Positions 2,335 through 44,351 of a stretch of 44,351 nt of DNA are shown one piece after another. The first letter of the stretch is position 1. Every line of letters begins with the position of its first letter. Under the pieces are notes generated by a model. That model did no database searches, had not been told where the DNA came from, and worked only from the letters and a program-made list of their open reading frames with translations. Source of the stretch: an uncultured Bacilli bacterium (GTDB taxonomy: Bacteria > Bacillota_I > Bacilli_A > RF39 > UBA660); NCBI GenBank assembly GCA_947632395.1, contig CANRPA010000005.1:1-44351 (forward strand), read 5' to 3'. A program made the translations under genes and the position numbers.

Positions 2335-2615
2335 TGAATAATTATAGAGATATAATAAAAGCTCCAATTATTACTGAAAAAACTGCAAATTTAAGCCAAA
2401 ATGGAAACATTGTAACTTTTAGTGTAGACCCTAAAGCTAATAAAACTCAAATTAAACAAGCTGTAGAAAAAATCTTTGATGTAAAAGTAGAAAGCGTAAA
2501 TACAATAAATGTTAAACCTAGAAAAAAAAGAGTAGGACGTTATGCTGGACTTACTAATAGAAAGAAAAAAGCTATAGTTACATTAAAAGAAGGAAGTTCA
2601 ATAGAACTTAACTAA
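2334..2615 (+). CDS. rplW: 50S ribosomal protein L23
   Basis: [14 protein letters not shown]; gene order. Confidence 0.99.
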
Positions 2616-2633
2616 TGTAAGGAGGGAATTAGA

Positions 2634-3464
2634 GTGGCAATCAAAAGTTATAAATCAACAACTAATGGTAGACGTGGAATGACTACTTTGGATAATACTG
2701 AATTAACTAAAGTAGCACCAGAAAAATCATTACTTGTTACATTAAAGAAAAATGGTGGTCGTAATAATCAAGGTAAAATAACTGTTCGTCATCAAGGCGG
2801 AGGAGCAAAAAGAAAATACCGTATTATTGATTTCAAAAGAGTTAAAGATGGTGTTGTAGGAACTGTAGCATCTATAGAATATGATCCAAACAGAACATCA
2901 AATATAGCTTTGATTAAATACGCAGATGGAGAAAAAACTTATATAATCGCTCCAAAAGGGTTAAAAGTTGGAGATAAAATTGAAAGTGGAGAAAAAGCAG
3001 ATATCAAAACTGGTAACTGTTTACCACTAGCAAATATTCCAGAAGGTACTTTAGTTCACTGTGTTGAATTAAAAGCTGGAAAAGGAGCACAAATGGCTCG
3101 TTCAGCAGGATCAAGTGTACAAATACTTGGTTTTGAAGGAAAATATGCATTACTACGTTTAACTAGTGGTGAAGTTCGTAAAGTATTAAGTACTTGCCGT
3201 GCAACTATTGGTGAAGTAGGAAATGAAGATAATGAATTAGTAAATTTAGGTAAAGCTGGTCGTAAAAGACATATGGGAATTCGTCCAACAGTTCGTGGAT
3301 CAGTTATGAATCCTAATGATCACCCTCATGGTGGTGGTGAAGGTAGAGCTCCAGTAGGACACAAAGGACCTCTTACACCTTGGGGAAAACCTGCACTTGG
3401 ATATAAAACTCGTAAAGGTAAAAAACAATCAGATGACTTAATAGTTCATCGCCGTAAAAAATAG
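2634..3464 (+). CDS. rplB: 50S ribosomal protein L2
   Basis: [18 protein letters not shown]. Confidence 0.99.
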
Positions 3465-3480
3465 GAAAGGATGGTAACTA

Positions 3481-3753
3481 ATGACTAGGAGTTTAAAAAA
3501 AGGACCTTTTGCAGATGAAAGTCTAATGAAAAAAGTTCAAAAGGTAAATGAATCTGAAAAAAAAGAAGTTATAAAAACTTGGTCACGCCGTTCAACAATA
3601 TTTCCTGAATTTATAGGTAACACATTTGCAGTTCATAATGGAAAAGAATTTGTTCCAGTATATGTTACTGAAGATATGGTAGGACACAAATTAGGTGAAT
3701 TCGTTGCTACTCGTAAATTCGGTGGTCACGGTGATGACAAAGATAAAAAATAG
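3481..3753 (+). CDS. rpsS: 30S ribosomal protein S19
   Basis: [17 protein letters not shown]. Confidence 0.99.
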
Positions 3754-3777
3754 AAAAACCTAGGAAGGAAGGAATTT

Positions 3778-4113
3778 ATGGAAGCAAGAGCAATCGCAAA
3801 AGGGCTTAGAATCCCTCCACGCAAAGCACGACTAGTAATTGATTTAGTACGTGGTAAAGACGTGGCAGAAGCAGAAAAAATTTGTAGTAATTACAATAGT
3901 GAAGCTGCTAGATTAACTTTAAAAGTGTTAACTTCAGCAGTAGCAAATGCTTGTAACAACTTAGGTTTAGATAAAACTAAATTATATGTTAGTAAAGCAT
4001 ATGTTGATGAAGGTCAAACATTGAAAAGAATGAATTTTGGTTCTCGTGGACATATAGATCCAATAAAAAAGAGAACATGTCATATTACAATTGTTGTAAG
4101 TGAAAAAAACTAA
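3778..4113 (+). CDS. rplV: 50S ribosomal protein L22
   Basis: PRKARLVIDLVRG, KRTCHITIVV. Confidence 0.99.
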   Translation: MEARAIAKGLRIPPRKARLVIDLVRGKDVAEAEKICSNYNSEAARLTLKVLTSAVANACNNLGLDKTKLYVSKAYVDEGQTLKRMNFGSRGHIDPIKKRTCHITIVVSEKN

Positions 4114-25620: not shown

Positions 25621-25923
25621 TCACTTAAATTAGAATATTTATAGTCAAATACATTTAAAATATATTTTTCCATATTTTTAAATGTTTTAAGCATTTTTTT
25701 CATATTCATACATTTAGAAACTTTGTTATTTTTACCATTAATATCTACGATTTTTAAATAATTTTTATAAAAAATACATTTTTTAAATTTAATAATAACA
25801 TTTTGTTGACAATTTCACCCTTTTGTTAATTTTTTGTTTAAAATTTAAAATATTTTCTTTTTTATTATAATGTGTTATAATTAATATGTTACAATAAAAT
25901 ATGATATGTTAGGGGTTGTACTT

Positions 25924-28900
25924 ATGAAATTATATGTAATGAATGGGAAACAAATAAATAAATATGCCTTACCATTTCAAAGTGAAGAATTTTATTCATT
26001 CGATTGCTTTTTTGATGGCTTTAGTGAAAAATGTACTATAACTTTACATAATATTAATAATATTTGGTACCTAAAAAGTAATGGTATGGTAAACGTTATA
26101 AACAATAATCAAAGTGTTTTAGATAAAATTCAATTAGTAGAGTATGGAATTTATTATATAAAAGTTCTTGGAATGAATAAATATGTTGGAATATATGCAA
26201 TGCCAAGTCAAGAAAAAAATTTATTAGAGTTTTCATACAAAAATATAAATAATATTACTATAGGTAATGGTTCAAATTGTAATATAAATTATAATAACCA
26301 ATTCATTTCAGGCGTGTATGCTACTATACAATTTAAAGCAAATGAGTGGATTATAAGTGGGAATGTAAACTCAAAAACTGGAATATTTGTTAATGATAAA
26401 AATGTCAAATCTGCAAAATTGAAGTATGGTGATGTTATTTTCATTTTTGGATTAAAAATAATTTGGATGCCAACTTTTTTAAAAATTAATAACCCTAACA
26501 ATATGGTTAAAATTACAGGGCTCAGTATATATATGAGTGAAGATATAGTTGATAATGTTAATGTACAAAGCGTAACTGATGAAGAATCTGCAATTGAATT
26601 ATATAAAGAGGATGATTATTTTTATCACATTCCTAGAATTAAAGAAACTATTGAAGAAGAAGAAATTTCAATAGACCCACCTCCAACTTCACAAATTCAA
26701 GAAGAAATGCCATTTTGGCTTACTTTAGGAACAAGTTTAACCCTTGTTGCATCATCTATAGTTATGATTTTTAATATATATAATAATGTTGTAGCAGGAC
26801 GAAATGTTTTAATGTTAATTCCACAAATAATAATGTTATTTGCAATGGTAGTTGGAAGTTTTGTTATGCCTAACTTACTAAAAAGATATCAAAAGAAAAG
26901 GGCTAAAAAAAGAGAAAAGTTAAGACAAACCAGATATAAAGAATATTTGGAAACAAAAAAACAAGAAATTGAAAAAATTTTAAGACATCAAAATGAAGTT
27001 TTACTTCAAAATAATTATAATGATATTAAATGTATAGAAGCTATAAGATCTAATAACCGTATTTTGTGGAGTAGAGAAATTTTTGATGATGATTTTTTAA
27101 ATATTAGATTGGGATTAGGAAATTTTCCCGCAAGTTTACATATTAATGCCCCAGAGGAACATTTTACTTTAGATAAGGATAATTTGTTTCAAGCAGTTTA
27201 TGATGTTGTTGATGCTTCAAAAATTTTAAAAAATGTTCCAATAACTTATTCCTTTCTAGAAAATAATATAAGTTCATTTATATTTAATAGTACTCAAAAA
27301 AATAATTATATAAACGATATAATGTTAAAATTGTTAACATTTCATAGTGGTACAGATTTAAAGATAGTTATTTTTACTAATAAAAATAGAGAAAATTTTT
27401 GGAATTACTTGAAAATTCTACCACATTGTTGGAATGATGAAAAAAGTGTGAGATTTTTTGCAACGGATTCTTCTGAAATTAATGAGGTATCAGCGGTTTT
27501 AGATGCAGAATTTAAACAAAGAAAGGAAATGTTCAGCAGTAATTCAGGTGAGTCAGAAAATATTGATAAGAACAAATGCTACAAAAATTTTATTCCATAT
27601 TATCTAATAATAACTGATGATTATCAAAATGCTAAAAATAGTCAAATAATATTGGATATTTTAAAAACTAAACAAAATTATGGATTTTCTTTATTAACTA
27701 TAGCAGATTCAATGAAGTCAATACCAAATAAATGTGAAAAATTTATTCAAATTGGTGAGAAAGATGGGTGCATATTAAATAAAGAATTAAATTCTAAATC
27801 ACAGCAAGAATTTTTAATTGAAAAATTACACACTATAGATATGGAAGAAATTTGCATGAAATTAGCTAATATTCCTCTTATGCCTAAAGATGGTCTTAAA
27901 GAGTTTCCAACATCTTTGCCTTTTTTAGAAATGTATAATGTGTCAAAGATAGAACAATTAAATATTTTAAATAGATGGCAAACAAATAATCCGGTTACAT
28001 CTTTATCAACTATTGTCGGTGTACATAAAGATATGGAATTATTTAAACTAGATTTGCATGAAAAACATCATGGACCACATGGCCTTGTTGCAGGTATGAC
28101 AGGATCAGGTAAATCAGAATTTATAATAACATATATTTTATCTATGGCTGTTAATTATCATCCATATGAAGTTCAGTTTGTTCTTATAGATTATAAAGGT
28201 GGTGGACTTGCTGGAGCTTTTGAAAATAAAGAAACAAATATTAGAATTCCACATTTAATAGGTACGATAACAAATTTGGATACTAGTGAAATGAATAGAA
28301 CGCTAGTATCTATAGATAGTGAATTAAAAAGAAGACAAAAGATTTTTAATGAAACAAAAGATTTGTTAGGTGAAAGTACTATTGATATATATAAATATCA
28401 AAGGTTATATCGTGAAGGAAGAGTAAAAAAACCAATGGCTCATTTGTTTATAATATGTGATGAATTTGCTGAATTAAAAAGCCAACAACCTGATTTTATG
28501 AATCAATTGGTTTCTACTGCAAGAATTGGTAGATCATTGGGTGTTCATTTAATATTGGCAACACAAAAACCTAGTGGCGTTGTAAATGATCAAATTTGGA
28601 GTAATTCTAAATTTAAGGTATGTTTAAAGGTTCAGGATAGAAGTGACAGTATGGAAATGTTGAAGAGACCTGAAGCTGCAAGTATAAAAGAGGCTGGAAG
28701 ATTTTATTTACAAGTAGGTTATGATGATTATTTTGATATTGGTCAGTCAGCATGGTGTGGAGCTAAATATGTTCCTGCCAATAAAATTATTAAAAAAATT
28801 GATGATTCTATTAGTTTTGTAAATAACACAGGATATACTATAAAATCAATAAATGATGCTGTAGTTAAAGAGGTATCTGCAGATTTAGGAGATCAATTAA

Positions 28901-30561
28901 CAAATATAGTAAAGCATATTTGTAATTTATCTGAAAAATACAATATTAAAACAGAAAAATTATGGTTAGATAAAATACCAGAGATTATTTACGTTAATAA
29001 ATTAAAAGAAAAATATAATTATAAAGCAAAACCATATTGCATTACTCCAATTATAGGTGAATATGATAGCCCTAGTACTCAATCACAAGGCCTTTTAAAT
29101 TTAGATTTGACATTTGGTGGTAATACTGTAATATATGGTCAAAGCGGAAGTGGTAAAGAAAATTTACTTTCAACAATAATATGGTCAACATTTATTGAGC
29201 ATACAACAGATGAAGTAAATATTTATGTAATAGATTGTGGTGCTGAAACACTTAAAATGTTTAGTAAAATTCCTCATGTTGGAGAAGTTGTTGATATAGG
29301 TGATTCGGACAAAATTTATGAAATTTTTAATTTAGCCTTTCAAGAAGTAGAAACTAGAAAAGAGCTTTTTTCTGATTATGCTGGAAATTATGTCAATTAT
29401 TGTCAAAATAGTGGTAATAAACTTCCTTTAATTATAATAATTATAAATAACTATGATAGCTTTATTGAATCGTATTCAAAATTATCTGAAGATGTACAAT
29501 CAATATATCGTGAATGTAGTAAATATGGTATAAAATTTATAATATCAACTGTTAACCCTTCAACTATACGTAGTAAGATGCTTCAAAATTTTGAAAATAA
29601 AATTTCTTTACAATTAGGTAGTGATGATGCTTATAGAAATTTATTTGGTGCTCCAAGAGGACTATTACCTTCTAAAGTCTTTGGAAGAGGAATTGTTCTT
29701 AAAGATAATAACTTTTATGAATTTCAAACTGCATATTTTACAAATCCAAATCAAATGAGTAATGTTTTAAGAACAGTATCTCAAAAATTAAACTCATATT
29801 ATACTAAAAAGGCAAAAAAAATATTTATAATACCTGAAAAGATTGGACTAAATTCAATAATTAAGGAATCAAAAGGATTATCTAAAATAGCATTAGGTTA
29901 TAATATTGAAAAGAAAGAAATTGAAACATATAATTTCATATCAAACAAAATAAATTTAATTTTGTCAGAAGAAATGAGTGAAAAAATAGATTTTATATAT
30001 GCATTAGTAAGACAATTTGCTATGAATGAAAAAACGAATATTATTATTCTTGATTTTGTCAATGCTTTTGAAAAAGAGATTTCTAACACTGTAAAATTTA
30101 ATAATAATTTTGATTCTATTTTTAATTCGATATATTCTAATTTAAAAAATGATAAAACAAGTAAAGTTAAAAACATGTATGTATTTATAGGGCCTGGTGC
30201 TATCAAAAACGTAGTAAGTGAAAATACTTATGAAATTATCAAAAAAATATTTACAAATGTAAATTCATTAGAAAACAATTTCTTTGTATTTGCAGATGAC
30301 TATGATAATATTAAAAATTTAAAATTAGAAGATTGGTTCCAATCTGGAGTCAACAATTCTAATGGTATATGGTTAGGTGAAGGTATTGCTAATCAAATGA
30401 TGATTAACGTTTCTGATTTATCTTTAGATGATAGAAAGAGAAGTTTCCCATATATGGGTTATACTATAGTAAATGGTAAAAGCAAATGTATAAAATGTGT
30501 ATTAGATGAAGAAATAAGTAATAATGAAGAAAAGGAGGCTATAGTATTAGATGAAAAATAA
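25924..30561 (+). CDS. essC: Type VII secretion ATPase EssC
   Basis: FHA-like N-terminus, 2 TM, HGPHGLVAGMTGSGKS, IDYKGG, DEFAEL, GRSLGVHLILATQ; further degenerate FtsK domains. Confidence 0.95.
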   Translation: MKLYVMNGKQINKYALPFQSEEFYSFDCFFDGFSEKCTITLHNINNIWYLKSNGMVNVINNNQSVLDKIQLVEYGIYYIKVLGMNKYVGIYAMPSQEKNLLEFSYKNINNITIGNGSNCNINYNNQFISGVYATIQFKANEWIISGNVNSKTGIFVNDKNVKSAKLKYGDVIFIFGLKIIWMPTFLKINNPNNMVKITGLSIYMSEDIVDNVNVQSVTDEESAIELYKEDDYFYHIPRIKETIEEEEISIDPPPTSQIQEEMPFWLTLGTSLTLVASSIVMIFNIYNNVVAGRNVLMLIPQIIMLFAMVVGSFVMPNLLKRYQKKRAKKREKLRQTRYKEYLETKKQEIEKILRHQNEVLLQNNYNDIKCIEAIRSNNRILWSREIFDDDFLNIRLGLGNFPASLHINAPEEHFTLDKDNLFQAVYDVVDASKILKNVPITYSFLENNISSFIFNSTQKNNYINDIMLKLLTFHSGTDLKIVIFTNKNRENFWNYLKILPHCWNDEKSVRFFATDSSEINEVSAVLDAEFKQRKEMFSSNSGESENIDKNKCYKNFIPYYLIITDDYQNAKNSQIILDILKTKQNYGFSLLTIADSMKSIPNKCEKFIQIGEKDGCILNKELNSKSQQEFLIEKLHTIDMEEICMKLANIPLMPKDGLKEFPTSLPFLEMYNVSKIEQLNILNRWQTNNPVTSLSTIVGVHKDMELFKLDLHEKHHGPHGLVAGMTGSGKSEFIITYILSMAVNYHPYEVQFVLIDYKGGGLAGAFENKETNIRIPHLIGTITNLDTSEMNRTLVSIDSELKRRQKIFNETKDLLGESTIDIYKYQRLYREGRVKKPMAHLFIICDEFAELKSQQPDFMNQLVSTARIGRSLGVHLILATQKPSGVVNDQIWSNSKFKVCLKVQDRSDSMEMLKRPEAASIKEAGRFYLQVGYDDYFDIGQSAWCGAKYVPANKIIKKIDDSISFVNNTGYTIKSINDAVVKEVSADLGDQLTNIVKHICNLSEKYNIKTEKLWLDKIPEIIYVNKLKEKYNYKAKPYCITPIIGEYDSPSTQSQGLLNLDLTFGGNTVIYGQSGSGKENLLSTIIWSTFIEHTTDEVNIYVIDCGAETLKMFSKIPHVGEVVDIGDSDKIYEIFNLAFQEVETRKELFSDYAGNYVNYCQNSGNKLPLIIIIINNYDSFIESYSKLSEDVQSIYRECSKYGIKFIISTVNPSTIRSKMLQNFENKISLQLGSDDAYRNLFGAPRGLLPSKVFGRGIVLKDNNFYEFQTAYFTNPNQMSNVLRTVSQKLNSYYTKKAKKIFIIPEKIGLNSIIKESKGLSKIALGYNIEKKEIETYNFISNKINLILSEEMSEKIDFIYALVRQFAMNEKTNIIILDFVNAFEKEISNTVKFNNNFDSIFNSIYSNLKNDKTSKVKNMYVFIGPGAIKNVVSENTYEIIKKIFTNVNSLENNFFVFADDYDNIKNLKLEDWFQSGVNNSNGIWLGEGIANQMMINVSDLSLDDRKRSFPYMGYTIVNGKSKCIKCVLDEEISNNEEKEAIVLDEK

Positions 30562-36824: not shown

Positions 36825-37394
36825 TTAAACATCTCTTTTATTAAATTTTTTTAAATAATAATTTCTAAGTTCTTTAAATCTAGCATAATGTACTACTTCT
36901 CTTTGTCTTAAAAATGAAAGTGGTGCGAGTAAATCAGGATCATCAGTCATGTTCATTAAATGTTCATAAACAGCTCTAGCTTTTTGTTCTGCAGCCATAT
37001 CTTCAGTTAAATCAGCATGCCAATCACCAGTAGTAGCAAAGTAAGCGGCTGTAAATGGAACTCCATTTGCATCTACAGGGAATAAAGCATGATCATGACC
37101 AACATATTGACCTGTTAATCCATTATCAATTAACTCTTTAACACTTGCACCTTCCATAAGTTGTTTTACCATAGTTGCAATCATTTCTACATGTGCAAGT
37201 TCTTCTGTTCCAATATCATTTAAAAGTGCATAACCTTTTTCATCAGGCATAGTATATCTTTGATTTAAATATCTTAAAGCAGCAGAAAATTCTCCATTTG
37301 AACCACCATATTGTTCTAGAAGTGCTTTTGCCATTTTTAAATCTTTATTTTTAATATTTATAGGATATTCTAATTTTTTTTCATATTTCCACAT
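36825..37394 (-). CDS. cotJC: CotJC manganese catalase-family protein
   Basis: MWKYEKKLEYP, QYGG..GE, DIGTEELAH, REVVH. Confidence 0.95.
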   Translation of the reverse strand: MWKYEKKLEYPINIKNKDLKMAKALLEQYGGSNGEFSAALRYLNQRYTMPDEKGYALLNDIGTEELAHVEMIATMVKQLMEGASVKELIDNGLTGQYVGHDHALFPVDANGVPFTAAYFATTGDWHADLTEDMAAEQKARAVYEHLMNMTDDPDLLAPLSFLRQREVVHYARFKELRNYYLKKFNKRDV

Positions 37395-37403
37395 ATAAAC
37401 CTC

Positions 37404-37859
37404 CTAATTATCCCAAGGCCATGGCATATCGTCCCAAGCCCAAGGATATTTATTTAAACTATCAGAGTTTAAAACAATAGGGCCATATTTAGACTCATAT
37501 TGTTCCATTAAGCCTTCCTTTTGTTTTCTATATTGATTAAATAAATCAATTGCTTTTCTATCATCTGGATAAATATCTAAATAAAGATTTAAATCAACCA
37601 TTGCAAATCCCAAAGCATCTATATCAGTTAAAAGACTTGCTTGTTCATTCATAGGTTTAACATCATATGGAACTTTTATTTTATAAGGATCATATAGGTC
37701 CTTAAATAAGTTTCCTCTAATAAATCCATTATAGGGATCATATAAATTATTACTATCTTCATATGCTTCTTTATATATATTATTGTCTATGTTTTGATTA
37801 AAAAGATTATTATACATATTAGTATAATTGAATTTTCTAAAATCAGGGTAGTTATTCAT
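37404..37859 (-). CDS. cotJB: CotJB with N-terminal CotJA-like domain
   Basis: DLNLYLDIYP, YGPI, W.W...PWPW; N-terminal RGNLFKDLYDPY; ATG 37859 behind GGAGG. Confidence 0.88.
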   Translation of the reverse strand: MNNYPDFRKFNYTNMYNNLFNQNIDNNIYKEAYEDSNNLYDPYNGFIRGNLFKDLYDPYKIKVPYDVKPMNEQASLLTDIDALGFAMVDLNLYLDIYPDDRKAIDLFNQYRKQKEGLMEQYESKYGPIVLNSDSLNKYPWAWDDMPWPWDN

Positions 37860-37990
37860 AATTTTCCTCCTCAATCTATGTTATGAGATTAAACCATATA
37901 TGTATGGGTTAATGTCTACTAGGAAAAAAATAAAAAAAACTATAGACAAAAACACTATAATTTGTTAAAATATATTTCGTAAACGTTTAT

Positions 37991-38067
37991 GGCGAGTATG
38001 GTGAAGGGGTTAACACGGCGGATTGTGGTTCCGTTATGCTAGGGTTCGAATCCCTATACTCGCCCCA
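37991..38067 (+). tRNA. tRNA-His(GTG)
   Basis: 8-bp acceptor stem with G-1 (GGCGAGTA/TACTCGCC), GTG anticodon, TTCGAAT loop, encoded CCA. Confidence 0.97.
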
Positions 38068-39096
38068 TGTTGATTTAAAACTCGTATATTGGCGAGTTTT
38101 TTTATAACGATAAAAGTTAAATAAATAATAAAAAACTTCTTGCTAAACAATACATATTAAAATTTGTTTGATATAATATATGTAGTTAAACCATAATAAA
38201 ATGAGGTGTTATTGTGAATATTGAAAATATACAAAATGTTTTGTTTGAATGTTATTCAAAAGATTTATGTTATCCTAAAGTTCAAAACGAATGGAAGATG
38301 AAAATAAATGCTTTGGAATGTGTGCAATAACATCTCTAATTATTAATGATTATTTTGGTGGAGAATTTGTAAAATTCATGTGGATGGAATTAGTCATTAT
38401 TTTAATTTAGTAGAAGATAAAATTATAGATTTAACTTCAATTCAATTTAATCATGAAATTGATTATAAAGAATATCAAATTATAGATAGACAAAAAATAT
38501 TAACTGCTGATACAAAGACTAGATATCACATACTAAAGTCAAAATTAATTAAAGCATTATTAAAACAGGTAGATGAAAAAGTATATTCTTGTAAATCTTG
38601 TGATAAGTTAGTTGATAAATTTCCTAATGATGAAACAGTATTTCTTGGAAAAGATCAGACAATAGTATTAGTTGGAGAAGCACCTGCAAATAATGGTTGG
38701 AGAAAAAGTCATAAATTATGGTGTGATATAAATGGAAAAGTATTACCTAGTGGAGTTGTATTACAAAAGTTATTTGATATTATTGACAGAAATATTTTTG
38801 AAACTACATTTTTAGAATCAGTTAAGTGCTATCCACTTGAAAGAAAAAATTTAAAAACATGTTCTAGTAATTGTAAAGATATAATGTTAGAACAATTAAA
38901 AATATTAAATCCTAAATTAATCATTACTTTAGGAGAATTTCCAACTAGAAATTTACTTAATTTTAAATTTAATAAGTTTGCCGATGTAGTTGGCAATATA
39001 TATGAAGTTAATGGTTATAAAATATTACCTATTTATCATCCTAGTCCTATATCTCCAAAGAGTTATAAATGTAATGCTCCTATATTTGAAAATTTA
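38062..39096 (+). repeat. Direct repeat copy 1 (tRNA 3' tip, terminator, promoter, yunG-udg)
   Basis: Matches 41750-~42538 at offset 3688 up to the internal deletion. Confidence 0.93.
38077..38103 (+). terminator. tRNA terminator
   Basis: aaaactcg / cgagtttt plus T run. Confidence 0.8.
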
Positions 39097-39120
39097 AGAG
39101 ATTTATTGATAGATATATAG
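38214..39120 (+). pseudogene. YunG-like domain fused to uracil-DNA glycosylase (family 4-like); two frameshifts in the 5' part
   Basis: GTG 38214 behind GAGGTG; GMCAITSLIINDYFGGE and HYFN..IIDLT..QF lie in shifted frames; UDG motifs CKSC, VGEAP, VKCYP, IITLG, YHPS intact in 38380-39120. Confidence 0.72.
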
Positions 39121-39217
39121 TATTTTAAAAATTTATTTAGTATAATATATATAGTTAAAGGGCTAGTACAGACTTTAAAAAAGTTTTGTATTGGCTTTTT
39201 TAGATGCAGGTGATTTA

Positions 39218-39736
39218 ATGAAAAAAATTATATTTTTGAGTGGAATTCATGGTGTTGGTAAGGGATATATTGCAAAGCAAATAAAAAAGGAAATTAATAT
39301 ATCTATATATGAGGCAAGTGATTTAATTCGTTTAAATGGAGTATCAACTGATGAAAAGAAAAAAGTTAATAATGTGAAACTCAATCAAGAGTTATTAATA
39401 AATTCAATAAATAATTTAACGTGTAATGAAACTTTTATATTAAATGGACATACTTGCTTACTAACTTCAGATAATAAAATTGAATCTATAGATATAAGTT
39501 ATTTTAAAAAGATTCATATTATAGGGATCATATCTGTTTACGATGATATTAATATTATAGAAGATAGATTGTATGAGAGGGACAACATTCATTTTGATAA
39601 AATTACATTAAATAATTTACAAAATGCTGAAATTGAAAATACTAAGCAATTATCAGAAAAATTGCGTATTCCGTTATTATTATTTAAAAATGGCAACGAT
39701 ATTAAAAATTTAATTAACTTTATTACCAATTTGTAG
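39218..39736 (+). CDS. P-loop nucleotide kinase (adenylate-kinase-like)
   Basis: FLSGIHGVGKG, ASDLI, NQELL, LNGH, RLYERD lid; ATG 39218. Confidence 0.8.
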   Translation: MKKIIFLSGIHGVGKGYIAKQIKKEINISIYEASDLIRLNGVSTDEKKKVNNVKLNQELLINSINNLTCNETFILNGHTCLLTSDNKIESIDISYFKKIHIIGIISVYDDINIIEDRLYERDNIHFDKITLNNLQNAEIENTKQLSEKLRIPLLLFKNGNDIKNLINFITNL

Positions 39737-39746
39737 GAGGTTTATA

Positions 39747-41237
39747 ATGATAAAAGTATTATTAGATACAAATATAATTGTATATAGAGAAAGCGATAAT
39801 GTTTATAAAGAAAGAATTGGTGAATTATTTAAAATTATTGATAATAACCCAGACATGTATAAGTATATACATCCAATAATTAGACAAGAATTATTACAAA
39901 ATTTTCATAATGAAAAAAGAGATTTGCTACTTGATAGGTTGAGTTCATATAATGTGTTAGATAGCAGTAGAAATGTTGATTATAAATTAAAAATAATTAC
40001 TAATCCTTTAAACAAAACAGATAATGATCAAATAGACGATATAATTTTAAATCAACTTTATATTGGTAAAGTAGATTTTTTAGTTACTGAAGATAAAAAA
40101 ATAAAAGAAAAATCAATCTTACTAGGTATAGGTCATAAAGTAATGAACATTAATGAATTCATTTTTTCAAATAAAACAGAGAAAAGTATAAATCATAGTA
40201 TACTAGATATTTATAAAGTTAAGTTTGGTGATTTAGATATCAATGATTCTTTCTTCGATTCTTTAAAAAATGATTATCCCGGATTTTTAAGTTGGTATGA
40301 AAAAAAGAAACAAGAAGATGTATATTGCTATAAAGAACAAAATAAAATATTGGGATTATTGTTTTTAAAAAACGAAGAACCAGAGTTCGAAGATTACTCT
40401 GATATAAAGCCACCAATGAAGAAAAATAGAAAGTTAAAGATATCAACATTTAAAGTGGAAATCAGTGGTAAAAAAATTGGAGAAAGATTTATGAAAATAA
40501 TATTTGATCAAGCATTATTTTCAATGGTAGATGAAATATATGTCACAATTTATGATAATGATGAGAAAAAAATAAATCTAATAAGATATTTTGAAAAGTT
40601 TGGATTTCAATATTATGGAAAGAAGAATAATGAACTTGTATATGTTAGAAGTATGAGAAAGTTTTTTGACTGTGACTATCCATTAAAGAGCTATCCATAT
40701 TTTAAAAGAAATAATGATACATTTATAATTCCAATAAAGCCAAAATATCATACTTATTTGTTACCAGATTCAATATTACATAGAGAAACATATAATGATA
40801 TTCATATGCCTGTAGAATACGCAATAAATAAGTATTATATTACTAATTGTGGATGGTTAGAGATACCAAAGATTGGAGATAATGTTGTTTTTTACCGTAG
40901 CAAACAAGAAGGGGCTATAGCAAAATACTCTAGTGTTTTAACAACAATTGGAATTGTTACTAATATTTTTATTCCAAGAAATGCACAGGAATTAGTTGAT
41001 AAAGTTTCAGGAAGAACAGTTTATGATGAGAATGAGTTAAGAGCAACTTATAGCAAAAATACTTATGTTATTGAATTTGCTTATATTACAACGTTAGATA
41101 AAAAACTAAATTACGATTTTTGTAAAACAAATGGCATATTAGATGATGCTCCACGCGGAGTTTTGAAAATTGATAATTTAAGATTCCAAAAAATAATTGA
41201 ATTTGGAAAAATTGACACTAGTTTAATTATAAAGTAA
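39747..41237 (+). CDS. PIN + GNAT acetyltransferase + EVE/ASCH-like protein
   Basis: PIN LLDTNI...D...LVTEDK; GNAT LKISTFKV..GKKIGERF, FEKFGF; PUA-like IPIKPKYH...GDNVVFYRS. Confidence 0.75.
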   Translation: MIKVLLDTNIIVYRESDNVYKERIGELFKIIDNNPDMYKYIHPIIRQELLQNFHNEKRDLLLDRLSSYNVLDSSRNVDYKLKIITNPLNKTDNDQIDDIILNQLYIGKVDFLVTEDKKIKEKSILLGIGHKVMNINEFIFSNKTEKSINHSILDIYKVKFGDLDINDSFFDSLKNDYPGFLSWYEKKKQEDVYCYKEQNKILGLLFLKNEEPEFEDYSDIKPPMKKNRKLKISTFKVEISGKKIGERFMKIIFDQALFSMVDEIYVTIYDNDEKKINLIRYFEKFGFQYYGKKNNELVYVRSMRKFFDCDYPLKSYPYFKRNNDTFIIPIKPKYHTYLLPDSILHRETYNDIHMPVEYAINKYYITNCGWLEIPKIGDNVVFYRSKQEGAIAKYSSVLTTIGIVTNIFIPRNAQELVDKVSGRTVYDENELRATYSKNTYVIEFAYITTLDKKLNYDFCKTNGILDDAPRGVLKIDNLRFQKIIEFGKIDTSLIIK

Positions 41238-41291
41238 TACTAAATATAAAAATTATGTTATAATTAATTTATATAATAGGAGGGAATATTT

Positions 41292-41666
41292 ATGTGTAAA
41301 ATTTTAATTTCAATAAAACCTCAATATGTAAATGAGATTTTATCTGGTAGGAAAAAATATGAATATAGGAAAGTAAAAGCTAAAAAGGATAATGTAGATA
41401 AAATGATAGTTTATGCGACAGCCCCCATTATGAAAGTGGTAGCAGAAATAGAAATATTAAATATTTTAGAAGATGCTCCTAATTTAGTTTGGGAGCATAC
41501 AAAAAAGTATTCTGGAATTAGTAAATCTTTCTATGATAAATATTATGAAAATCGTGACATTGCGATTGCTTATCAATTGGGAAAAATAAAAAAATATGAT
41601 GAACCTAAAGAATTAAGTGAGTTAGGAATTTTATATAGCCCACAATCATTTGTTTATATTGATTAA
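41292..41666 (+). CDS. ASCH domain protein
   Basis: ISIKPQY..ILSGRKKYEYRK, YATAP, PQSFVY. Confidence 0.9.
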   Translation: MCKILISIKPQYVNEILSGRKKYEYRKVKAKKDNVDKMIVYATAPIMKVVAEIEILNILEDAPNLVWEHTKKYSGISKSFYDKYYENRDIAIAYQLGKIKKYDEPKELSELGILYSPQSFVYID

Positions 41667-41749
41667 AATTTAAAATAATGTTATACTTAACTCATCAAGT
41701 ATTTATGTAAATACTTTTACTACTTTGGTGCAAAACTCATATTCTTATT

Positions 41750-42538
41750 GCCCCATGTTGATTTAAAACTCGTATACTGGCGAGTTTTTTTATAACGATA
41801 AAAGTTAAATAAATAATAAAAAACTTCTTGCTAAACAATACATATTAAAATTTGTTTGATATAATATATGTAGTTAAACCATAATAAAATGAGGTGTTAT
41901 TGTGAATATTGAAAATATACAAAATGTTTTGTTTGAATGTTATTCAAAAGATTTATGTTATCCTAAAGTTCAAAACGAATGGAAGATGAAAATAAATGCT
42001 TTGGAATGTGTGCAATAACATCTCTAATTATTAATGATTATTTTGGTGGAGAATTTGTAAAATTCATGTGGATGGAATTAGTCATTATTTTAATTTAGTA
42101 GAAGATAAAATTATAGATTTAACTTCAATTCAATTTAATCATGAAATTGATTATAAAGACTATCAAATTATAAATGGAAAAGTATTACCTAGTGGAGTTG
42201 TATTACAAAAACTATTTGATATTATTGACAGAAATATTTTTGAAACTACATTTTTAGAATCAGTTAAGTGTTATCCACTTGAAAGAAAAAATTTAAAAAC
42301 TTGTTCTAGTAATTGTAAAGATATAATGTTAGAACAACTAAAAATATTAAATCCAAAATTAATTATTACTTTAGGAGAATTTCCAACTAGAAATTTACTT
42401 AATTTTAAATTTAATAAGTTTGCCGATGTAGTTGGTAATATATATGAAGTTAATGGCTATAAAATATTACCTATTTATCATCCTAGTCCTATATCTCCAA
42501 AAAGTTATAAAGGTAATATACCTATATTTAAAAAATTA
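41750..42538 (+). repeat. Direct repeat copy 2 with 246-bp internal deletion
   Basis: Begins gccccatgttg; lacks copy-1 38485-38730. Confidence 0.93.
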
Positions 42539-42598
42539 AAAGAGTTTGATAAAGAAATTATTAAATTGTTTGATAAAGAAATTATTAAATTCTCTTGA
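41902..42598 (+). pseudogene. Deleted second copy of yunG-udg
   Basis: Same two frameshifts; in-frame loss of 82 codons removes CKSC and the catalytic GEAP motif. Confidence 0.85.
42544..42591 (+). repeat. Perfect 24-bp tandem duplication
   Basis: gtttgataaagaaattattaaatt twice. Confidence 0.95.
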
Positions 42599-42650
42599 CA
42601 ACCATCTGAAATATGTTTATCATATCATTATGAAATGGAGGAAAATATAT

Positions 42651-42931
42651 ATGAAAAAAGATGAAAATCTATTTGGCATTTCTAAAGAAGAATTTAGGAG
42701 ACAATGTAGTATAAAAAATCTTGATGGTGATTTGACGCAATCTCCAATTGTTAAAGGTGAAACAGGGTTGGAACCATGTTTAAGAGGCGCAAAAAAATAT
42801 TAGAAGATCCTAAAATGCTAAAAATGGTAAGAAGTTTTTTAACTAATGGTGATTTAGTTAAAGATAAAGTCAATGAATCATCAAACTTTCCTACTGCACA
42901 AAAATCAATTACAAAATACTATAAGAAATAA
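42651..42931 (+). pseudogene. Small hypothetical gene split at an A7 run
   Basis: GGAGG SD, ATG 42651, stop at 42803; one extra A would extend the frame to TAA 42931. Confidence 0.45.
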
Positions 42932-43027
42932 AGTTAGAATATGATATTTAATATAAAAAATTATACTAAAGATTTTGGAATTAAAGTAATCTATTAAAGA
43001 GAAAAAAACAGTCATCAATAGTGAGAA

Positions 43028-44233
43028 TTATGACTGTCTTTTTATTTTTTTTATATACATTTTTAGTAGTAAAGGATAAAATAATTTTATGGGATAATAA
43101 ATTTTAGATATTTTTAAATCATATTCACCTGCAAATTCTAAAACTTGACCATTGAATTTTTCTTTAAAAATTGTTAAGTTATCATTAAGATTTCCATCTA
43201 CGCCACCTAGATTGCAGTAATGACAACCATTTTTTATAGAGAATTTTAATATTTCAAATACTACACCTGTGGAAACTCTTAATTTAGTTAAATTTAAACT
43301 ATTTCCTGCATATAGGTATTCACTTGTTCTAATTCCTTTTTTATTTTTTGGTAAAATTATTAAAGATGCAGATAATATCAAAGTATCATTATTTTCCTTT
43401 AATAGATTTTTTGCTTCTAATATTTCTTTTTCATCAGAATTATTTGACCTTAAAAATTCAATATATTTATTTAAATCAATTTTTCCAAAAACTAAATATG
43501 CTTGATCTTTGTAATTTTTCATTATTTTTCTAAAATAATCTTCATCTCTTAAATTTATACCTTGCTTTATTTCAGTTTGCTTTAGAAGATATACTAAGTC
43601 TGTAACTCTATCAATATCATTTGTTATTTCAAAAGTTATCCCTCTTTTTTCATGAAATGAACCTACATAATATTTAAATTTACTATTATATGTTTCTAAA
43701 AATTCCTCTTCAGTTAATATTTTAGAATTAATATCACAAAGAGGTGCAATTATATTATATTGAGGTTGTAGATTTTTTCCTATTTCCTTATTAATTCCGG
43801 TGGATCTATATCCTAAAGAAAGTAAATTTTTATTTTTTACATCATAATCTTTTGAATAATTATTAGCGATTTCTTTTTCCTTAATACTAAATTGTCTTAT
43901 ACAAAAATTAGGATCTATTTTAATTATATAGGCCTTATTTTCTTTAGCTAATTTTTTAATATTTATAGTCATTTCTTTTAAATCTTCAAAATTTGTAAAA
44001 TCTATCAAATATCCCCTAGGAACATAAAACATTTTTAAATTTTTAAATATTTTTTTTACTAATATTAAACATACCCCAATTAATTCTTGATTTTTATATA
44101 GTCCGCAATGAAAAGATTGCCAATTATTTTTTACATTTGCCCAATTATATTCTTGCATAAAACTTGCCATTGAATAATTTTCTATAAATTTATCATATTC
44201 TTCTTTTTCTAGATTTTTAGTAAATGTATACAT
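43028..44233 (-). CDS. FemABX/MurM-family peptidoglycan bridge aminoacyltransferase
   Basis: SFMQ..WANVK..W, YVPRG, IKIDP, LQPQY, YLYAG, NLGG, FKEKF, EFAGEYD. Confidence 0.93.
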   Translation of the reverse strand: MYTFTKNLEKEEYDKFIENYSMASFMQEYNWANVKNNWQSFHCGLYKNQELIGVCLILVKKIFKNLKMFYVPRGYLIDFTNFEDLKEMTINIKKLAKENKAYIIKIDPNFCIRQFSIKEKEIANNYSKDYDVKNKNLLSLGYRSTGINKEIGKNLQPQYNIIAPLCDINSKILTEEEFLETYNSKFKYYVGSFHEKRGITFEITNDIDRVTDLVYLLKQTEIKQGINLRDEDYFRKIMKNYKDQAYLVFGKIDLNKYIEFLRSNNSDEKEILEAKNLLKENNDTLILSASLIILPKNKKGIRTSEYLYAGNSLNLTKLRVSTGVVFEILKFSIKNGCHYCNLGGVDGNLNDNLTIFKEKFNGQVLEFAGEYDLKISKIYYPIKLFYPLLLKMYIKKIKRQS

Positions 44234-44351
44234 TTAAATAATCACCCCTATTCTTTCCATTGATTTTATTATAACATACGGCAGACGCTGTCCGCAACCT
44301 AATTTCTAATTTAGACCCCAAAAAAAGCAAACCTCACTTGAAATAGTTTGC

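What the first reader, a model, noticed from the sequence alone, without database searches (positions are those of the whole stretch)
39218..41666. Candidate uncharacterised defence or nucleic-acid modification operon: kinase + PIN-GNAT-EVE + ASCH
Seen: three co-directional genes encoding a P-loop kinase, a 496-aa PIN-GNAT-PUA-like protein and a standalone ASCH protein. They sit between long direct repeats just downstream of a tRNA. Established: PIN domains are ribonucleases; GNATs include tRNA-acetylating toxins; PUA-fold EVE domains read modified bases; the ASCH protein YqfB hydrolyses N4-acetylcytidine; tRNA 3' ends are island hotspots. Inference: an acetylation writer/reader/eraser circuit in which ASCH counteracts the GNAT and PIN is the effector, possibly abortive anti-phage defence. 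I do not recognise it as a named, experimentally tested system.
Basis: partly seen in the sequence, partly recalled or inferred. Interest (0 to 1): 0.85.

Follow-up and report, generated by a model that had tools for sequence, protein, structure and literature searches.

The report
Catalogued but untested PIN-GNAT-ASCH defence candidate
The three genes are real and belong together, but they are a member of a gene module that was already described by computer analysis and listed as an untested anti-phage candidate, here carried on a small inserted island next to a tRNA gene.

Summary
Observation confirmed: kinase (39218-39736), 496-aa protein (39747-41237) and ASCH protein (41292-41666), co-directional, between ~1-kb direct repeats that begin at the tRNA-His 3' end. 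A confident model (pLDDT 89) shows PIN (1-136), GNAT (151-305) and a PUA-like barrel (321-491).

It is not unrecognised. The two core proteins hit PADLOC's candidate PDC-M11A/B at 4.7e-143 and 1.6e-44. Bell, Wolf and Koonin 2020 describe this operon, (PIN)-GNAT-EVE + ASCH + AAA_17 ATPase. A 2025 phage record labels PIN-less homologues GevT toxin/GevA antitoxin. I found no experimental paper.

Added here:
- ASCH adjoins the big gene in 77 of 80 loci, the kinase in 18 of 80.
- The partner is a sequence homologue of ZmASCH (E 1.7e-20, Z 16.9), not detectably of YqfB.
- The gene was found in 0 of 26 congeners.
- The tRNA-His flank is variable, with defence and recombinase genes in relatives.

Most likely a toxin-antitoxin-like defence module; the mechanism is inferred. 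New member of a known kind; interest moderate-low.

The parts
37992..38067 (+). tRNA-His (GTG). Its last 6 nt (GCCCCA, 38062-38067) begin the left direct repeat.
   Evidence: ARAGORN; Rfam tRNA 59.2 bits; repeat start.
38062..39111 (+). Left long direct repeat: tRNA 3' end, a hairpin followed by a T-run (seen by eye), a spacer and a YunG-UDG family-4-like glycosylase gene.
   Evidence: 38062-38505 is about 98-100% identical to 41750-42190, and 38727-39111 is 95-97% identical to 42169-42551.
38380..39120 (+). YunG + UDG-superfamily gene (246-aa ORF as assembled). The intact homologue in congener G011 is 304 aa. The upstream YunG part is out of frame in the window.
   Evidence: Pfam UDG 1.6e-12 and YunG 2.9e-9; NCBIfam family-4 UDG below cut-off; 304-aa ORF in L102; contigs of 4 runs carry an extra T after 38296 or 41984.
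39128..39159 (+). 32-nt box upstream of the kinase gene, 88% identical to the box upstream of both UDG copies (38159-38190, 41847-41878). Possibly a promoter; this is inference.
   Evidence: Repeat family D4. The promoter scan as a whole was not above the shuffles (51 found, 47.9 expected).
39218..39736 (+). P-loop NMP-kinase-like protein (AAA_17). Accessory gene of the module.
   Evidence: A homologue is present in 18 of 80 loci, directly upstream and co-directional in 16.
39747..40154 (+). PIN domain (residues 1-136) of the 496-aa protein. Acidic residues D7, E48 and D97 are invariant; D94, E115 and D116 are kept in at least 90% of sequences.
   Evidence: VIA-align against VapC 5ecd_A Z 13.2; alignment A1 of 37 sequences.
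40197..40661 (+). GNAT acetyltransferase-fold domain (residues 151-305). E246-R247-F248, K250 and F253 are invariant, and G245 is kept in at least 90% of sequences, at the strand-to-helix turn where GNATs bind CoA. That placement is inferred from the fold.
   Evidence: Naa60 5hgz Z 13.6; Foldseek GNAT hits from 1.3e-5; PHROG 13728 'acetyltransferase' 8.3e-21; A1.
40707..41219 (+). PUA-like (ASCH/EVE superfamily) barrel (residues 321-491).
   Evidence: ZmASCH 5y6b_D Z 15.2, rmsd 2.2, 137 aligned.
41292..41666 (+). Standalone ASCH protein (PDC-M11B; GevA-like; ZmASCH-type). G19xK21xxE24xR26, Y41 and P117-Q118-S119 are invariant.
   Evidence: PADLOC 1.6e-44; profile against ZmASCH 1.7e-20; model pLDDT 95.3; Z 16.9; 42% identity to GevA; alignment A4.
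41672..41755 (+). Conserved post-ASCH segment ending in a second copy of the tRNA 3' end (GCCCCA at 41750-41755). Read as the right end (attR-like) of the islet.
   Evidence: Homologous segments in L001, L003 and the cassette-less congener G011. In G011 it is followed by the sequence that directly follows tRNA-His in L001 and L002.
41750..42551 (+). Right long direct repeat with the decayed UDG copy (ORF 42068-42598). Its 246-nt deletion removes the CxxC and GEAPA part of the gene.
   Evidence: Depth in run X1 is about 58 on the shared part against about 25 on the flanks and cassette, and a contig runs 39030-41807 across the junction.

Best explanation
This is a member of the computationally described, experimentally untested module called (PIN)-GNAT-EVE + ASCH + AAA_17 (Bell et al. 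2020). PADLOC lists it as the candidate PDC-M11. It was gained horizontally and sits in a 3.7-kb integrase-less islet at the 3' end of tRNA-His.

Proposed function: a two-component, toxin-antitoxin-like anti-phage module with an optional third gene.

Shown:
- The gene set.
- The folds.
- Conservation of the catalytic-type residues.
- Tight A-B gene coupling.
- Patchy, mobile distribution.
- Frequent restriction-modification neighbours.

Inferred:
- The 496-aa protein is the effector.
- Its PUA-like barrel docks it on a nucleic acid, probably RNA/tRNA or a modified base.
- The GNAT domain acetylates that target or a bound aminoacyl group.
- The PIN domain cleaves RNA.
- The ZmASCH-type ASCH protein, made in step with the effector, keeps it harmless until infection. 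It could do so by competing for or processing the same nucleic acid, or by reversing the mark.
- The kinase-like NTPase modulates the system and is dispensable in most lineages.
For: Identity:
- PDC-M11A 4.7e-143 and PDC-M11B 1.6e-44, both full length.
- Three domains by fold.
- Architecture matches the passages read in PMC7641849.

Linkage:
- ASCH is adjacent and co-directional in 77 of 80 loci, spanning Bacillota, Bacteroidota, Chloroflexota, Proteobacteria, spirochaetes and two archaea.
- Its ORF start overlaps the end of the big gene in 47 of those 77, by 23 nt in 30.
- The kinase is present in 18 of 80.

Active-site-type residues are conserved.

Defence context:
- Of 133 immediate neighbours in 73 loci, PADLOC type I methyltransferase matched 9 and type I specificity subunit 6.
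- Pfam matched N6_N4_Mtase 3, Eco57I 3, DNA_methylase 2, HNH_5 3, DUF1016_N 5 and Fic 2.

Phage homologues:
- PIN-less pairs lie directly after cI in lambdoid phages. One record names them GevT toxin and GevA antitoxin, with 37% and 42% identity to the window's proteins.

Dependence on the partner:
- L004 is the only locus away from a contig end that lacks ASCH. Its big protein has 10 changes at 105 columns conserved at 90% or more, against 0-1 in its nearest kin. G245R lies in the GNAT turn.

Accessory and mobile:
- 0 of 26 congeners and 6 of 80 genomes of other genera of the family have a match, only 2 of the 6 full length.
- Synteny in 10 congeners stops at the tRNA-His 3' end.
- The genes found there include a serine recombinase, AIPR and GmrSD_N.
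Against: - No experiment on this module was found. The 'toxin/antitoxin' label is a depositor's annotation whose source I could not find or read.
- Most immediate neighbours are not defence genes, and no matched background frequency was computed.
- The L004 argument rests on one locus.
- GC content does not mark the islet, and no integrase lies in the window downstream of the tRNA.
- The GNAT's closest solved folds are protein N-terminal acetyltransferases, which says nothing about a nucleic-acid substrate.
- The ribonuclease activity of ZmASCH was called weak by its authors and was measured at 100-fold enzyme excess (PMC5615036, section 14).
- ZmASCH Lys53 aligns to a variable column, which is Met47 in the window.
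Confidence: 0.6

Rival explanations
1. Writer/eraser circuit, analogous to DarTG. The GNAT puts an acetyl group on a nucleobase such as N4 of cytosine. The ASCH protein is an amidohydrolase that removes it. PIN acts when erasure fails. This is a special case of the toxin-antitoxin reading with an enzymatic antitoxin.
For: - ASCH-fold hydrolases that strip base modifications exist. YqfB is described as an N4-acetylcytidine amidohydrolase (PMC12707154, passages).
- BapA, a double-barrel protein compared by its authors to ZmASCH, removes glucose from glucosyl-5hmC in phage DNA (bioRxiv 10.64898/2026.02.25.707755, abstract and passages).
- YqfB is a fold match of the partner (9kyf_A Z 9.2, rmsd 2.5, 94 aligned).
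- The invariant polar residues K21, E24, R26, Y41 and S119 suit an enzyme.
Against: - No sequence-level match to YqfB at E<=1, whereas ZmASCH matches at 1.7e-20. ZmASCH also stands far above YqfB by fold (Z 16.9 against 9.2).
- The only activity reported for ZmASCH is nucleic-acid binding and weak ssRNA cleavage.
- No acetylated nucleoside has been linked to this family in anything I could read.
Confidence: 0.15
2. Self-marking DNA-modification accessory of restriction-modification systems. Bell et al. attribute this idea to Iyer et al. 2013. The GNAT acetylates a DNA base as an epigenetic mark, and the PUA-like and ASCH domains read it. The module acts with neighbouring type I R-M genes rather than as a suicide switch.
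For: - Type I R-M methyltransferase and specificity genes are the commonest immediate neighbours.
- Bell et al. report an ASCH-HsdS fusion and HTH-ASCH fusions, and suggest that ASCH binds modified DNA.
Against: - In the window no R-M gene adjoins the cassette. Most of the 133 neighbours are also not R-M genes, so the module can stand alone.
- The conserved PIN domain points to RNA. Bell et al. make the same point.
- The PIN-less phage version sits in an immunity-region slot without any R-M genes.
Confidence: 0.1
3. Lineage-specific composite with the adjacent glycosylase. The UDG-superfamily gene, kinase, PIN-GNAT-PUA protein and ASCH protein act together on hypermodified phage DNA. An ASCH-fold enzyme strips or alters a base decoration and the glycosylase excises the base, as with Brig3 and BapA.
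For: - The UDG gene lies directly upstream of the cassette in the window. In L001 the homology runs unbroken from the UDG gene to the post-ASCH segment (83.6% over 3387 nt).
- Precedent: the Brig3 glycosylase is helped by BapA.
Against: - UDG was matched by only 2 of 133 immediate neighbours.
- Congener G011 has the same UDG gene after tRNA-His without the cassette. L002 has the cassette after tRNA-His without UDG.
- No test of relatedness to the Brig glycosylases was made.
Confidence: 0.05
4. The module is not a defence system. It could be an addiction module that only stabilises the islet, or a housekeeping RNA-modification or turnover enzyme pair.
For: - No phenotype is known.
- The ZmASCH authors suggested a role in controlling cellular RNA (section 16).
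- The ASCH partner also resembles a domain fused to ribosomal protein L22 in NCBIfam PRK12279 (4.7e-13, below cut-off).
Against: - It was found in 0 of 26 congeners and is patchy in the family, so it is not housekeeping.
- It recurs beside R-M genes.
- It recurs in the prophage immunity region.
- Payne et al. selected it because it is embedded in BREX, DISARM or type I R-M loci.
Confidence: 0.1

Closest known systems
PADLOC phage defence candidate PDC-M11 (PDC-M11A + PDC-M11B), from Payne et al. 2024, bioRxiv 10.1101/2024.01.29.577857
   Same: Both core proteins match the models over their full length (4.7e-143 and 1.6e-44). The genes are adjacent and co-directional.
   Different: PDC-M11 is a two-gene definition; the window adds the kinase gene. 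The preprint calls its 145 candidates untested.
(PIN)-GNAT-EVE / ASCH / AAA_17 operons of Bell, Wolf and Koonin 2020 (PMC7641849)
   Same: - Same three genes and the same domain order.
- The same observation that ASCH is nearly always present and AAA_17 is frequent but not invariable. I measured 77 of 80 and 18 of 80.
- The same association with type I R-M genes.
   Different: - They call the C-terminal domain EVE. Here its best solved match is an ASCH protein.
- They wrote that none of the modules had been characterised. Here the ASCH partner proves to be a sequence homologue of the biochemically studied ZmASCH.
- The host lineage and the tRNA-His islet are new details.
GevT toxin / GevA antitoxin, as annotated in Escherichia phage PhiR47_2 (PV340567.1)
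   Same: GevT aligns to residues 159-495 (GNAT + PUA-like) at 37% identity, E 5e-54. GevA aligns to the ASCH protein at 42%, E 5e-38. The gene order is the same and the ORFs overlap.
   Different: GevT has no PIN domain and no kinase gene beside it. It is prophage-borne, directly after cI. I found no paper behind the names.
ZmASCH, the ASCH domain of a Zymomonas mobilis helix-turn-helix protein (PDB 5GUQ/5GUS; Kim et al. 2017, PMC5615036)
   Same: - Family profile E 1.7e-20 over 120 of 123 positions.
- Model Z 16.9, rmsd 1.9 over all 124 residues.
- Tyr47 and Ser128 of ZmASCH align to the invariant Y41 and S119.
   Different: - ZmASCH comes from an HTH fusion protein.
- Its Lys53 aligns to a variable column.
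- Whether its gene lies beside a GNAT-EVE gene was not checked.
- Its RNase activity is weak.
VapBC (PIN toxin) and TacAT/AtaRT (GNAT toxin) type II toxin-antitoxin systems
   Same: PIN fold with the acidic residues. GNAT fold. A tightly coupled small partner gene.
   Different: - PIN and GNAT are fused in one protein together with a nucleic-acid-reader domain.
- The partner is an ASCH barrel encoded downstream, not an upstream DNA-binding antitoxin.
- No match to the VapB, TacA or AtaR type of partner was seen.

Membership tests
PADLOC PDC-M11 | Protein matching a PDC-M11A model | tested here: met
   PDLC04422 4.7e-143, residues 3-495 on profile positions 2-500 of 501.
PADLOC PDC-M11 | Adjacent protein matching a PDC-M11B model | tested here: met
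   PDLC04425 1.6e-44. Same strand, 54 nt downstream.
PADLOC PDC-M11 | Protection against phage | not testable with these tools
   The authors list it among 145 untested candidates.
(PIN)-GNAT-EVE operon (Bell et al. 2020) | N-terminal PIN domain with acidic active-site residues | tested here: met
   VapC 5ecd_A Z 13.2, rmsd 2.3, 122 aligned. D7, E48 and D97 are invariant.
(PIN)-GNAT-EVE operon (Bell et al. 2020) | Central GNAT-like domain | tested here: met
   Naa60 Z 13.6 over residues 151-305; PHROG acetyltransferase 8.3e-21.
(PIN)-GNAT-EVE operon (Bell et al. 2020) | C-terminal EVE domain | tested here: inconclusive
   PUA-like barrel confirmed. The best solved match is ZmASCH (Z 15.2). No EVE entry is among the 50 rows shown, and the domain was not folded or searched alone.
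(PIN)-GNAT-EVE operon (Bell et al. 2020) | Neighbouring ASCH gene, and often an AAA_17 gene | tested here: met
   Pfam ASCH and AAA_17. Co-occurrence 77 of 80 and 18 of 80.
GevTA (record annotation) | Homology of both proteins to GevT and GevA | tested here: met
   37% identity, E 5e-54, and 42%, E 5e-38. GevT lacks the PIN domain.
GevTA (record annotation) | Toxicity of T neutralised by A | not testable with these tools
   Only the annotation was seen. No paper was found.
ZmASCH-type ASCH proteins | Sequence homology and conservation of Tyr47 and Ser128 | tested here: met
   E 1.7e-20. Y41 and S119 are invariant in 42 sequences. The Lys53 equivalent is not conserved.
YqfB-type N4-acetylcytidine amidohydrolase | Sequence-level relationship to YqfB | tested here: inconclusive
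   Not among the PDB chains with E<=1 for the family profile. Fold match Z 9.2 over 94 residues.
YqfB-type N4-acetylcytidine amidohydrolase | Catalytic residues of YqfB | not tested
   No residue-level structural alignment was available. I know the catalytic residues only from recall.
Type II TA, VapBC | Small upstream antitoxin with a DNA-binding domain | tested here: not met
   The upstream gene is a 172-aa P-loop kinase. The partner is a downstream ASCH barrel.
tRNA-inserted integrative island | Direct repeat of the tRNA 3' end at the far border | tested here: met
   GCCCCA plus following bases at 38062 and 41750. Synteny in 10 congeners ends at the tRNA.
tRNA-inserted integrative island | Integrase within the island | tested here: not met
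   No recombinase among the ORFs at 38068-44351. A serine recombinase sits at this site in congener G003.

The most novel reading that the evidence does not exclude
The module is an immune switch based on acetylation of a nucleic acid, with a DarTG-like logic. The PUA-like domain guides the GNAT to write an acetyl mark on RNA or DNA. The ZmASCH-type partner removes or masks the mark in uninfected cells. The fused PIN nuclease, and in some lineages the kinase, carry out or tune the response. In this lineage the neighbouring UDG-family glycosylase may have been drawn into the same pathway against hypermodified phage DNA.
Probability: 0.15. Interest if true: 0.8.

Novelty: new member of a known kind. 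Interest (0 to 1): 0.35.

Why it matters
The family is very large. It spans bacteria, archaea and phages, yet I found no published experiment on it.

A fused RNase-acetyltransferase-reader protein with an obligate ASCH partner would be a new biochemical logic for immunity if it is shown to work.

What this window adds:
- A compact three-gene version in a small-genome gut Bacillota lineage.
- A link between the partner protein and a solved, assayed protein (ZmASCH).
- One natural case suggesting that the big protein decays once the partner is lost.

It does not add a new kind of system.

Tried and rejected
- Complex prediction of the 496-aa protein with the ASCH protein returned no verdict (score 0.00 in both runs). 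It is evidence neither for nor against binding.
- A profile-profile comparison of the ASCH partner with the big protein's C-terminal domain gave E 0.065 and probability 0.85%. It is not significant, so I do not claim the two barrels are paralogues.
- A sequence search of the PDB with the big protein's profile found nothing meaningful (best E 0.093).
- Pfam and NCBIfam gave no hit for the big protein.
- The promoter and terminator scan of 37900-43100 was uninformative: 51 promoter-like sites against 47.9 expected, and 0 terminators. The hairpin after tRNA-His is by eye only.
- Rfam found only the tRNA in 37800-43100. The conserved post-ASCH segment matches no known RNA family, and its 14-nt core occurs once in the window.
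- GC content does not mark the islet.
- I considered the long repeats as an assembly artefact of mixed strains and think it unlikely. In run X1 a contig with no differences runs 39030-41807 across the right junction, and the shared repeat has about twice the depth of the flanks. X1 may be the source sample, so this is not independent.
- A joint 39178->41677 in X6 suggests a cassette-less form, but only 24 letters lie on its shorter side, so it is weak.
- The PADLOC 'VakA' hit of the kinase (1.2e-4) was not followed up.
- The FemAB gene on the right flank was not found near tRNA-His in 11 relatives, so the right border of the second repeat unit is unresolved. The contig ends at 44351.
- Literature searches that found no experimental work:
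  - 'PDC-M11' (two inventories read as passages)
  - 'GNAT-EVE'
  - GevT/GevA
  - 'PhiR47'
  - ASCH + antitoxin + acetyltransferase
  - ASCH + anti-phage
  - DefensePredictor preprint, no occurrence of the terms
- The library lacks most subscription journals, and supplements were closed.
- For the neighbour tally I used 133 of 147 ORFs. Loci L074-L080 were dropped only to fit the 50,000-residue limit. L045 had no neighbour ORF of 120 aa or more.


Full report
WHAT IS THERE

The window is the whole of contig C5 of a 1.31-Mb, 92.6%-complete, low-GC genome in 78 contigs. Its closest loci in public records come from uncultured Bacilli/Mollicutes-like gut MAGs.

Downstream of tRNA-His (37992-38067) lie, all on the + strand:
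- a YunG + UDG-superfamily gene (38380-39120)
- a P-loop kinase gene (39218-39736)
- a 496-aa gene (39747-41237)
- a 124-aa ASCH gene (41292-41666)
- a second, deleted copy of the spacer and UDG gene (41750-42551)

A FemAB gene follows on the minus strand, and then the contig ends.

THE THREE PROTEINS

The 496-aa protein has no Pfam or NCBIfam match at E<=0.1, so its architecture had to be shown by structure.

An AlphaFold2 model was built on 37 homologues (alignment A1). It has mean pLDDT 89 and pTM 0.88. VIA-align places three domains:
- Residues 1-136 on VapC PIN toxins (5ecd_A Z 13.2, rmsd 2.3, 122 of 132 aligned).
- Residues 151-305 on GNAT acetyltransferases (Naa60 5hgz Z 13.6, rmsd 2.8, 148 aligned).
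- Residues 321-491 on the ASCH protein of Zymomonas mobilis (5y6b_D Z 15.2, rmsd 2.2, 137 aligned).

Foldseek agrees.

Conserved residues in A1:
- The acidic residues D7, E48 and D97 are invariant, and D94, E115 and D116 are kept in at least 90% of sequences.
- An invariant E246-R247-F248 stretch, preceded by G245 (kept in at least 90% of sequences), sits at the strand-to-helix turn of the GNAT fold.

The kinase is AAA_17 (2e-12). It has invariant GxxGxGK, DGH and RD motifs, and its profile hits adenylate and UMP-CMP kinases.

The third protein is an ASCH barrel (Pfam 9.3e-5; model pLDDT 95.3).

IT IS A KNOWN, CATALOGUED MODULE

PADLOC's library gives PDC-M11A at 4.7e-143 for the big protein and PDC-M11B at 1.6e-44 for the ASCH protein, both over the full length.

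PDC systems are 145 'phage defence candidates'. Payne et al. derived them from genes embedded in BREX, DISARM and type I R-M loci, and state that they are untested (bioRxiv 10.1101/2024.01.29.577857, passages).

Bell, Wolf and Koonin 2020 (PMC7641849, passages) describe exactly this architecture:
- An EVE domain is fused to the C-terminus of a GNAT, often with an N-terminal PIN.
- 'Almost all' operons encode an ASCH protein and 'often' an AAA_17 ATPase.
- The PIN form lies near type I R-M and other defence genes.
- The PIN-less form lies in prophages.

They credit the first description to Iyer et al. 2013, which I could not obtain.

A tblastn search against phage records found 16 records. In lambdoid coliphages the PIN-less pair lies directly downstream of cI. 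In record PV340567.1 it is annotated 'GevT toxin' and 'GevA antitoxin'. The window's proteins are 37% identical (E 5e-54, residues 159-495) and 42% identical (E 5e-38) to these.

I found no paper behind those names and no experimental study of the module. The library lacks most subscription journals, and supplements were closed.

TESTS OF THE LINKAGE, RUN HERE

Of these, 591 were confirmed, and the best 80 were kept as loci.

With HMMs iterated on the ORFs of those 80 loci:
- An ASCH homologue is present in 77, always co-directional and adjacent.
- Two of the three misses (L015, L027) end at a contig edge.
- In 47 of the 77 the ASCH ORF start overlaps the end of the big gene, by 23 nt in 30 of them. 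A gap of 4-182 nt is seen in 18. In 9 the start was overcalled. In 3 the ASCH gene lies 68 nt upstream.
- The kinase homologue is present in 18 of 80, directly upstream in 16.

So the two-gene core is obligate and the kinase is accessory, as Bell et al. wrote.

The single real ASCH-less locus, L004, carries a full-length big gene. Its product departs from the family at 10 of 105 columns that are conserved at 90% or more (N9S, R14M, E15K, G25E, L153M, G245R, V266F, H335Y, D341N, E347K). Its nearest relatives depart at 0 or 1. This is what one expects if the effector decays or is disarmed once the partner is lost. It is one case only.

DEFENCE CONTEXT

I scanned the nearest ORF of 120 aa or more on each side of the module in loci L001-L073. 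That was 133 of the 147 such ORFs; the rest were dropped only for a size limit.
- PADLOC type I methyltransferase matched 9 and type I specificity subunit 6.
- Pfam matched Methylase_S 6, N6_Mtase 5, DUF1016_N 5, N6_N4_Mtase 3, Eco57I 3, HNH_5 3, DNA_methylase 2, Fic 2 and Resolvase 2.

I computed no matched background. This agrees with the published association but does not quantify it.

THE ASCH PARTNER

The family profile (42 sequences) hits the solved ZmASCH chains at E 1.7e-20 over 120 of 123 positions. YqfB is not among the chains with E<=1.

A search of 48,161 representative chains ranks ZmASCH first (Z 16.9, rmsd 1.9, all 124 residues). It is followed by af2351 (Z 11.8), PH0355 (Z 9.9) and YqfB (Z 9.2, 94 residues).

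[quoted passage not shown] They align with the invariant Y41 and S119 of the partner family. Lys53 aligns with a variable column.

ZmASCH binds nucleic acids and shows weak Mg-dependent cleavage of ssRNA at 300 nM enzyme to 3 nM RNA (section 14). Its PDB name, 'helix-turn-helix domain-containing protein', fits the HTH-ASCH fusions that Bell et al. report for alphaproteobacterial operons. I did not check its locus.

It stays possible, since ASCH-fold hydrolases that strip base decorations exist: YqfB and BapA.

THE ISLAND

The gene is accessory:
- The PDC-M11A model finds it in 0 of 26 other genomes of the genus (15 of the 27 genomes searched, G000 included, are at least 90% complete).
- It matches in 6 of 80 genomes of other genera of the family. 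Only 2 of these are full length, and 4 are short GNAT-only matches with a stop.

In 10 congeners the conserved block of Mn-catalase/CotJC-like gene, CotJB gene and tRNA-His (Pfam) ends at the tRNA 3' end. What follows differs between them:
- a serine recombinase (G003)
- an AIPR protein (G006)
- a GmrSD_N protein (G005)
- an ABC ATPase (G013)
- a beta-lactamase-like protein (G007)
- an oxidoreductase (G001)
- an ORF with no Pfam family (G017)

Congener G011 has the intact 304-aa YunG-UDG gene after the tRNA without the cassette.

In L002 the cassette follows tRNA-His directly. In L001 the homology to the window runs from the UDG gene to 12 nt past the right repeat start (38384-41762, 83.6%), with tRNA-His 1.7 kb upstream.

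The 84 nt after the ASCH stop are conserved in L001, L003 and G011 and end in TTATTGCCCCA, a second copy of the tRNA's 3' end. In G011 this is followed by the sequence that directly follows tRNA-His in L001 and L002.

I read this as a small integrase-less islet (38068-41755) bounded by a repeat of the tRNA 3' end, lying in tandem with either:
- a second, decayed unit, or
- the native flank that carries the same spacer and UDG gene.

That would explain the 'long direct repeats'. The structure is probably real:
- In run X1 a contig with no differences spans 39030-41807.
- The shared repeat has about twice the depth of the flanks and cassette (about 58 against about 25).
- X1 may be the source sample.

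HOW IT MOST LIKELY WORKS

Shown:
- A PIN-GNAT-PUA-like fusion with catalytic-type residues conserved.
- An obligate partner of the ZmASCH type, often with overlapping reading frames.
- An optional kinase.
- Mobility.
- R-M and prophage-immunity contexts.

Inferred:
- The big protein is a growth-arresting effector.
- The PUA-like domain directs it to RNA/tRNA or a modified base.
- It acetylates and/or cleaves that target.
- The ASCH protein restrains it until infection.
- The kinase tunes the system.

I put 0.95 on the identity of the module. I put about 0.55 on an anti-phage or addiction-type toxin-antitoxin role. No single chemical mechanism gets more than 0.2-0.3.

VERDICT

The finding is a correct observation of a real, conserved module. 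The module is already in the literature and in PADLOC as an untested candidate, so it is a new member of a known kind. Its remaining interest is that the family is huge and, as far as I could find, still uncharacterised at the bench.

Noticed in passing
window 38226-38400 and 41914-42090 (around 38296 and 41984): The N-terminal half of the YunG domain lies upstream of the 246-aa UDG ORF in another frame, in both repeat copies. Contigs of runs X6 and X7 have an extra T after 38296, and those of X1 and X3 have one after the equivalent 41984. Congener G011 has an uninterrupted 304-aa gene. The frameshift in the window is probably a consensus error.
   Followed up: partly
window 38380-39120; L001 4646-5368; L102 40-954: A divergent family-4-like UDG fused to a YunG domain sits at a variable, island-like site beside a defence candidate. 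It has a CxxC motif, GEAPA and HPSP. Given recent reports of antiviral DNA glycosylases, it could itself be a defence gene. Relatedness to the Brig glycosylases was not tested.
   Followed up: no
window 42068-42598: The second UDG copy has an in-frame 246-nt deletion that removes the part holding the CxxC and GEAPA motifs. Its 3' end diverges into a short repeated 'FDKEIIK' tail. It is likely a pseudogene.
   Followed up: partly
relatives: L093 632-2071, L094 5878-7878, L096 3359-5671, L095 291-2522: The tRNA-His 3' flank is a variable hotspot in the genus. Different congeners carry a large serine recombinase, an AIPR abortive-infection-type protein, a GmrSD_N protein or an ABC ATPase at this site.
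   Followed up: partly
L104 (Methanothermobacter prophage psiM100) 2504-3982: A full-length homologue with PIN (ORFD, 27.6% identity over residues 1-430) lies in the 'inserted fragment IFa' that the record marks in this archaeal prophage. The next ORF overlaps its end by 23 nt, the same overlap as in 30 bacterial loci.
   Followed up: no
window 36825-37874: Mn-catalase/CotJC-like and CotJB genes (spore-coat-associated families) occur in a 1.3-Mb genome whose nearest public records are labelled Mollicutes, Mycoplasma or Bacilli. This suggests a spore-forming or formerly spore-forming small-genome Bacillota lineage.
   Followed up: no
window 25906-30561: A 1551-aa ORF on the + strand, the largest in the window. 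Not examined.
   Followed up: no
window 41292-41666: The ASCH partner matches the C-terminal 'unknown domain' of NCBIfam PRK12279 (50S ribosomal protein L22/unknown domain fusion protein) at 4.7e-13, far below the family cut-off. So an ASCH barrel of this type is fused to a ribosomal protein in some organisms.
   Followed up: no
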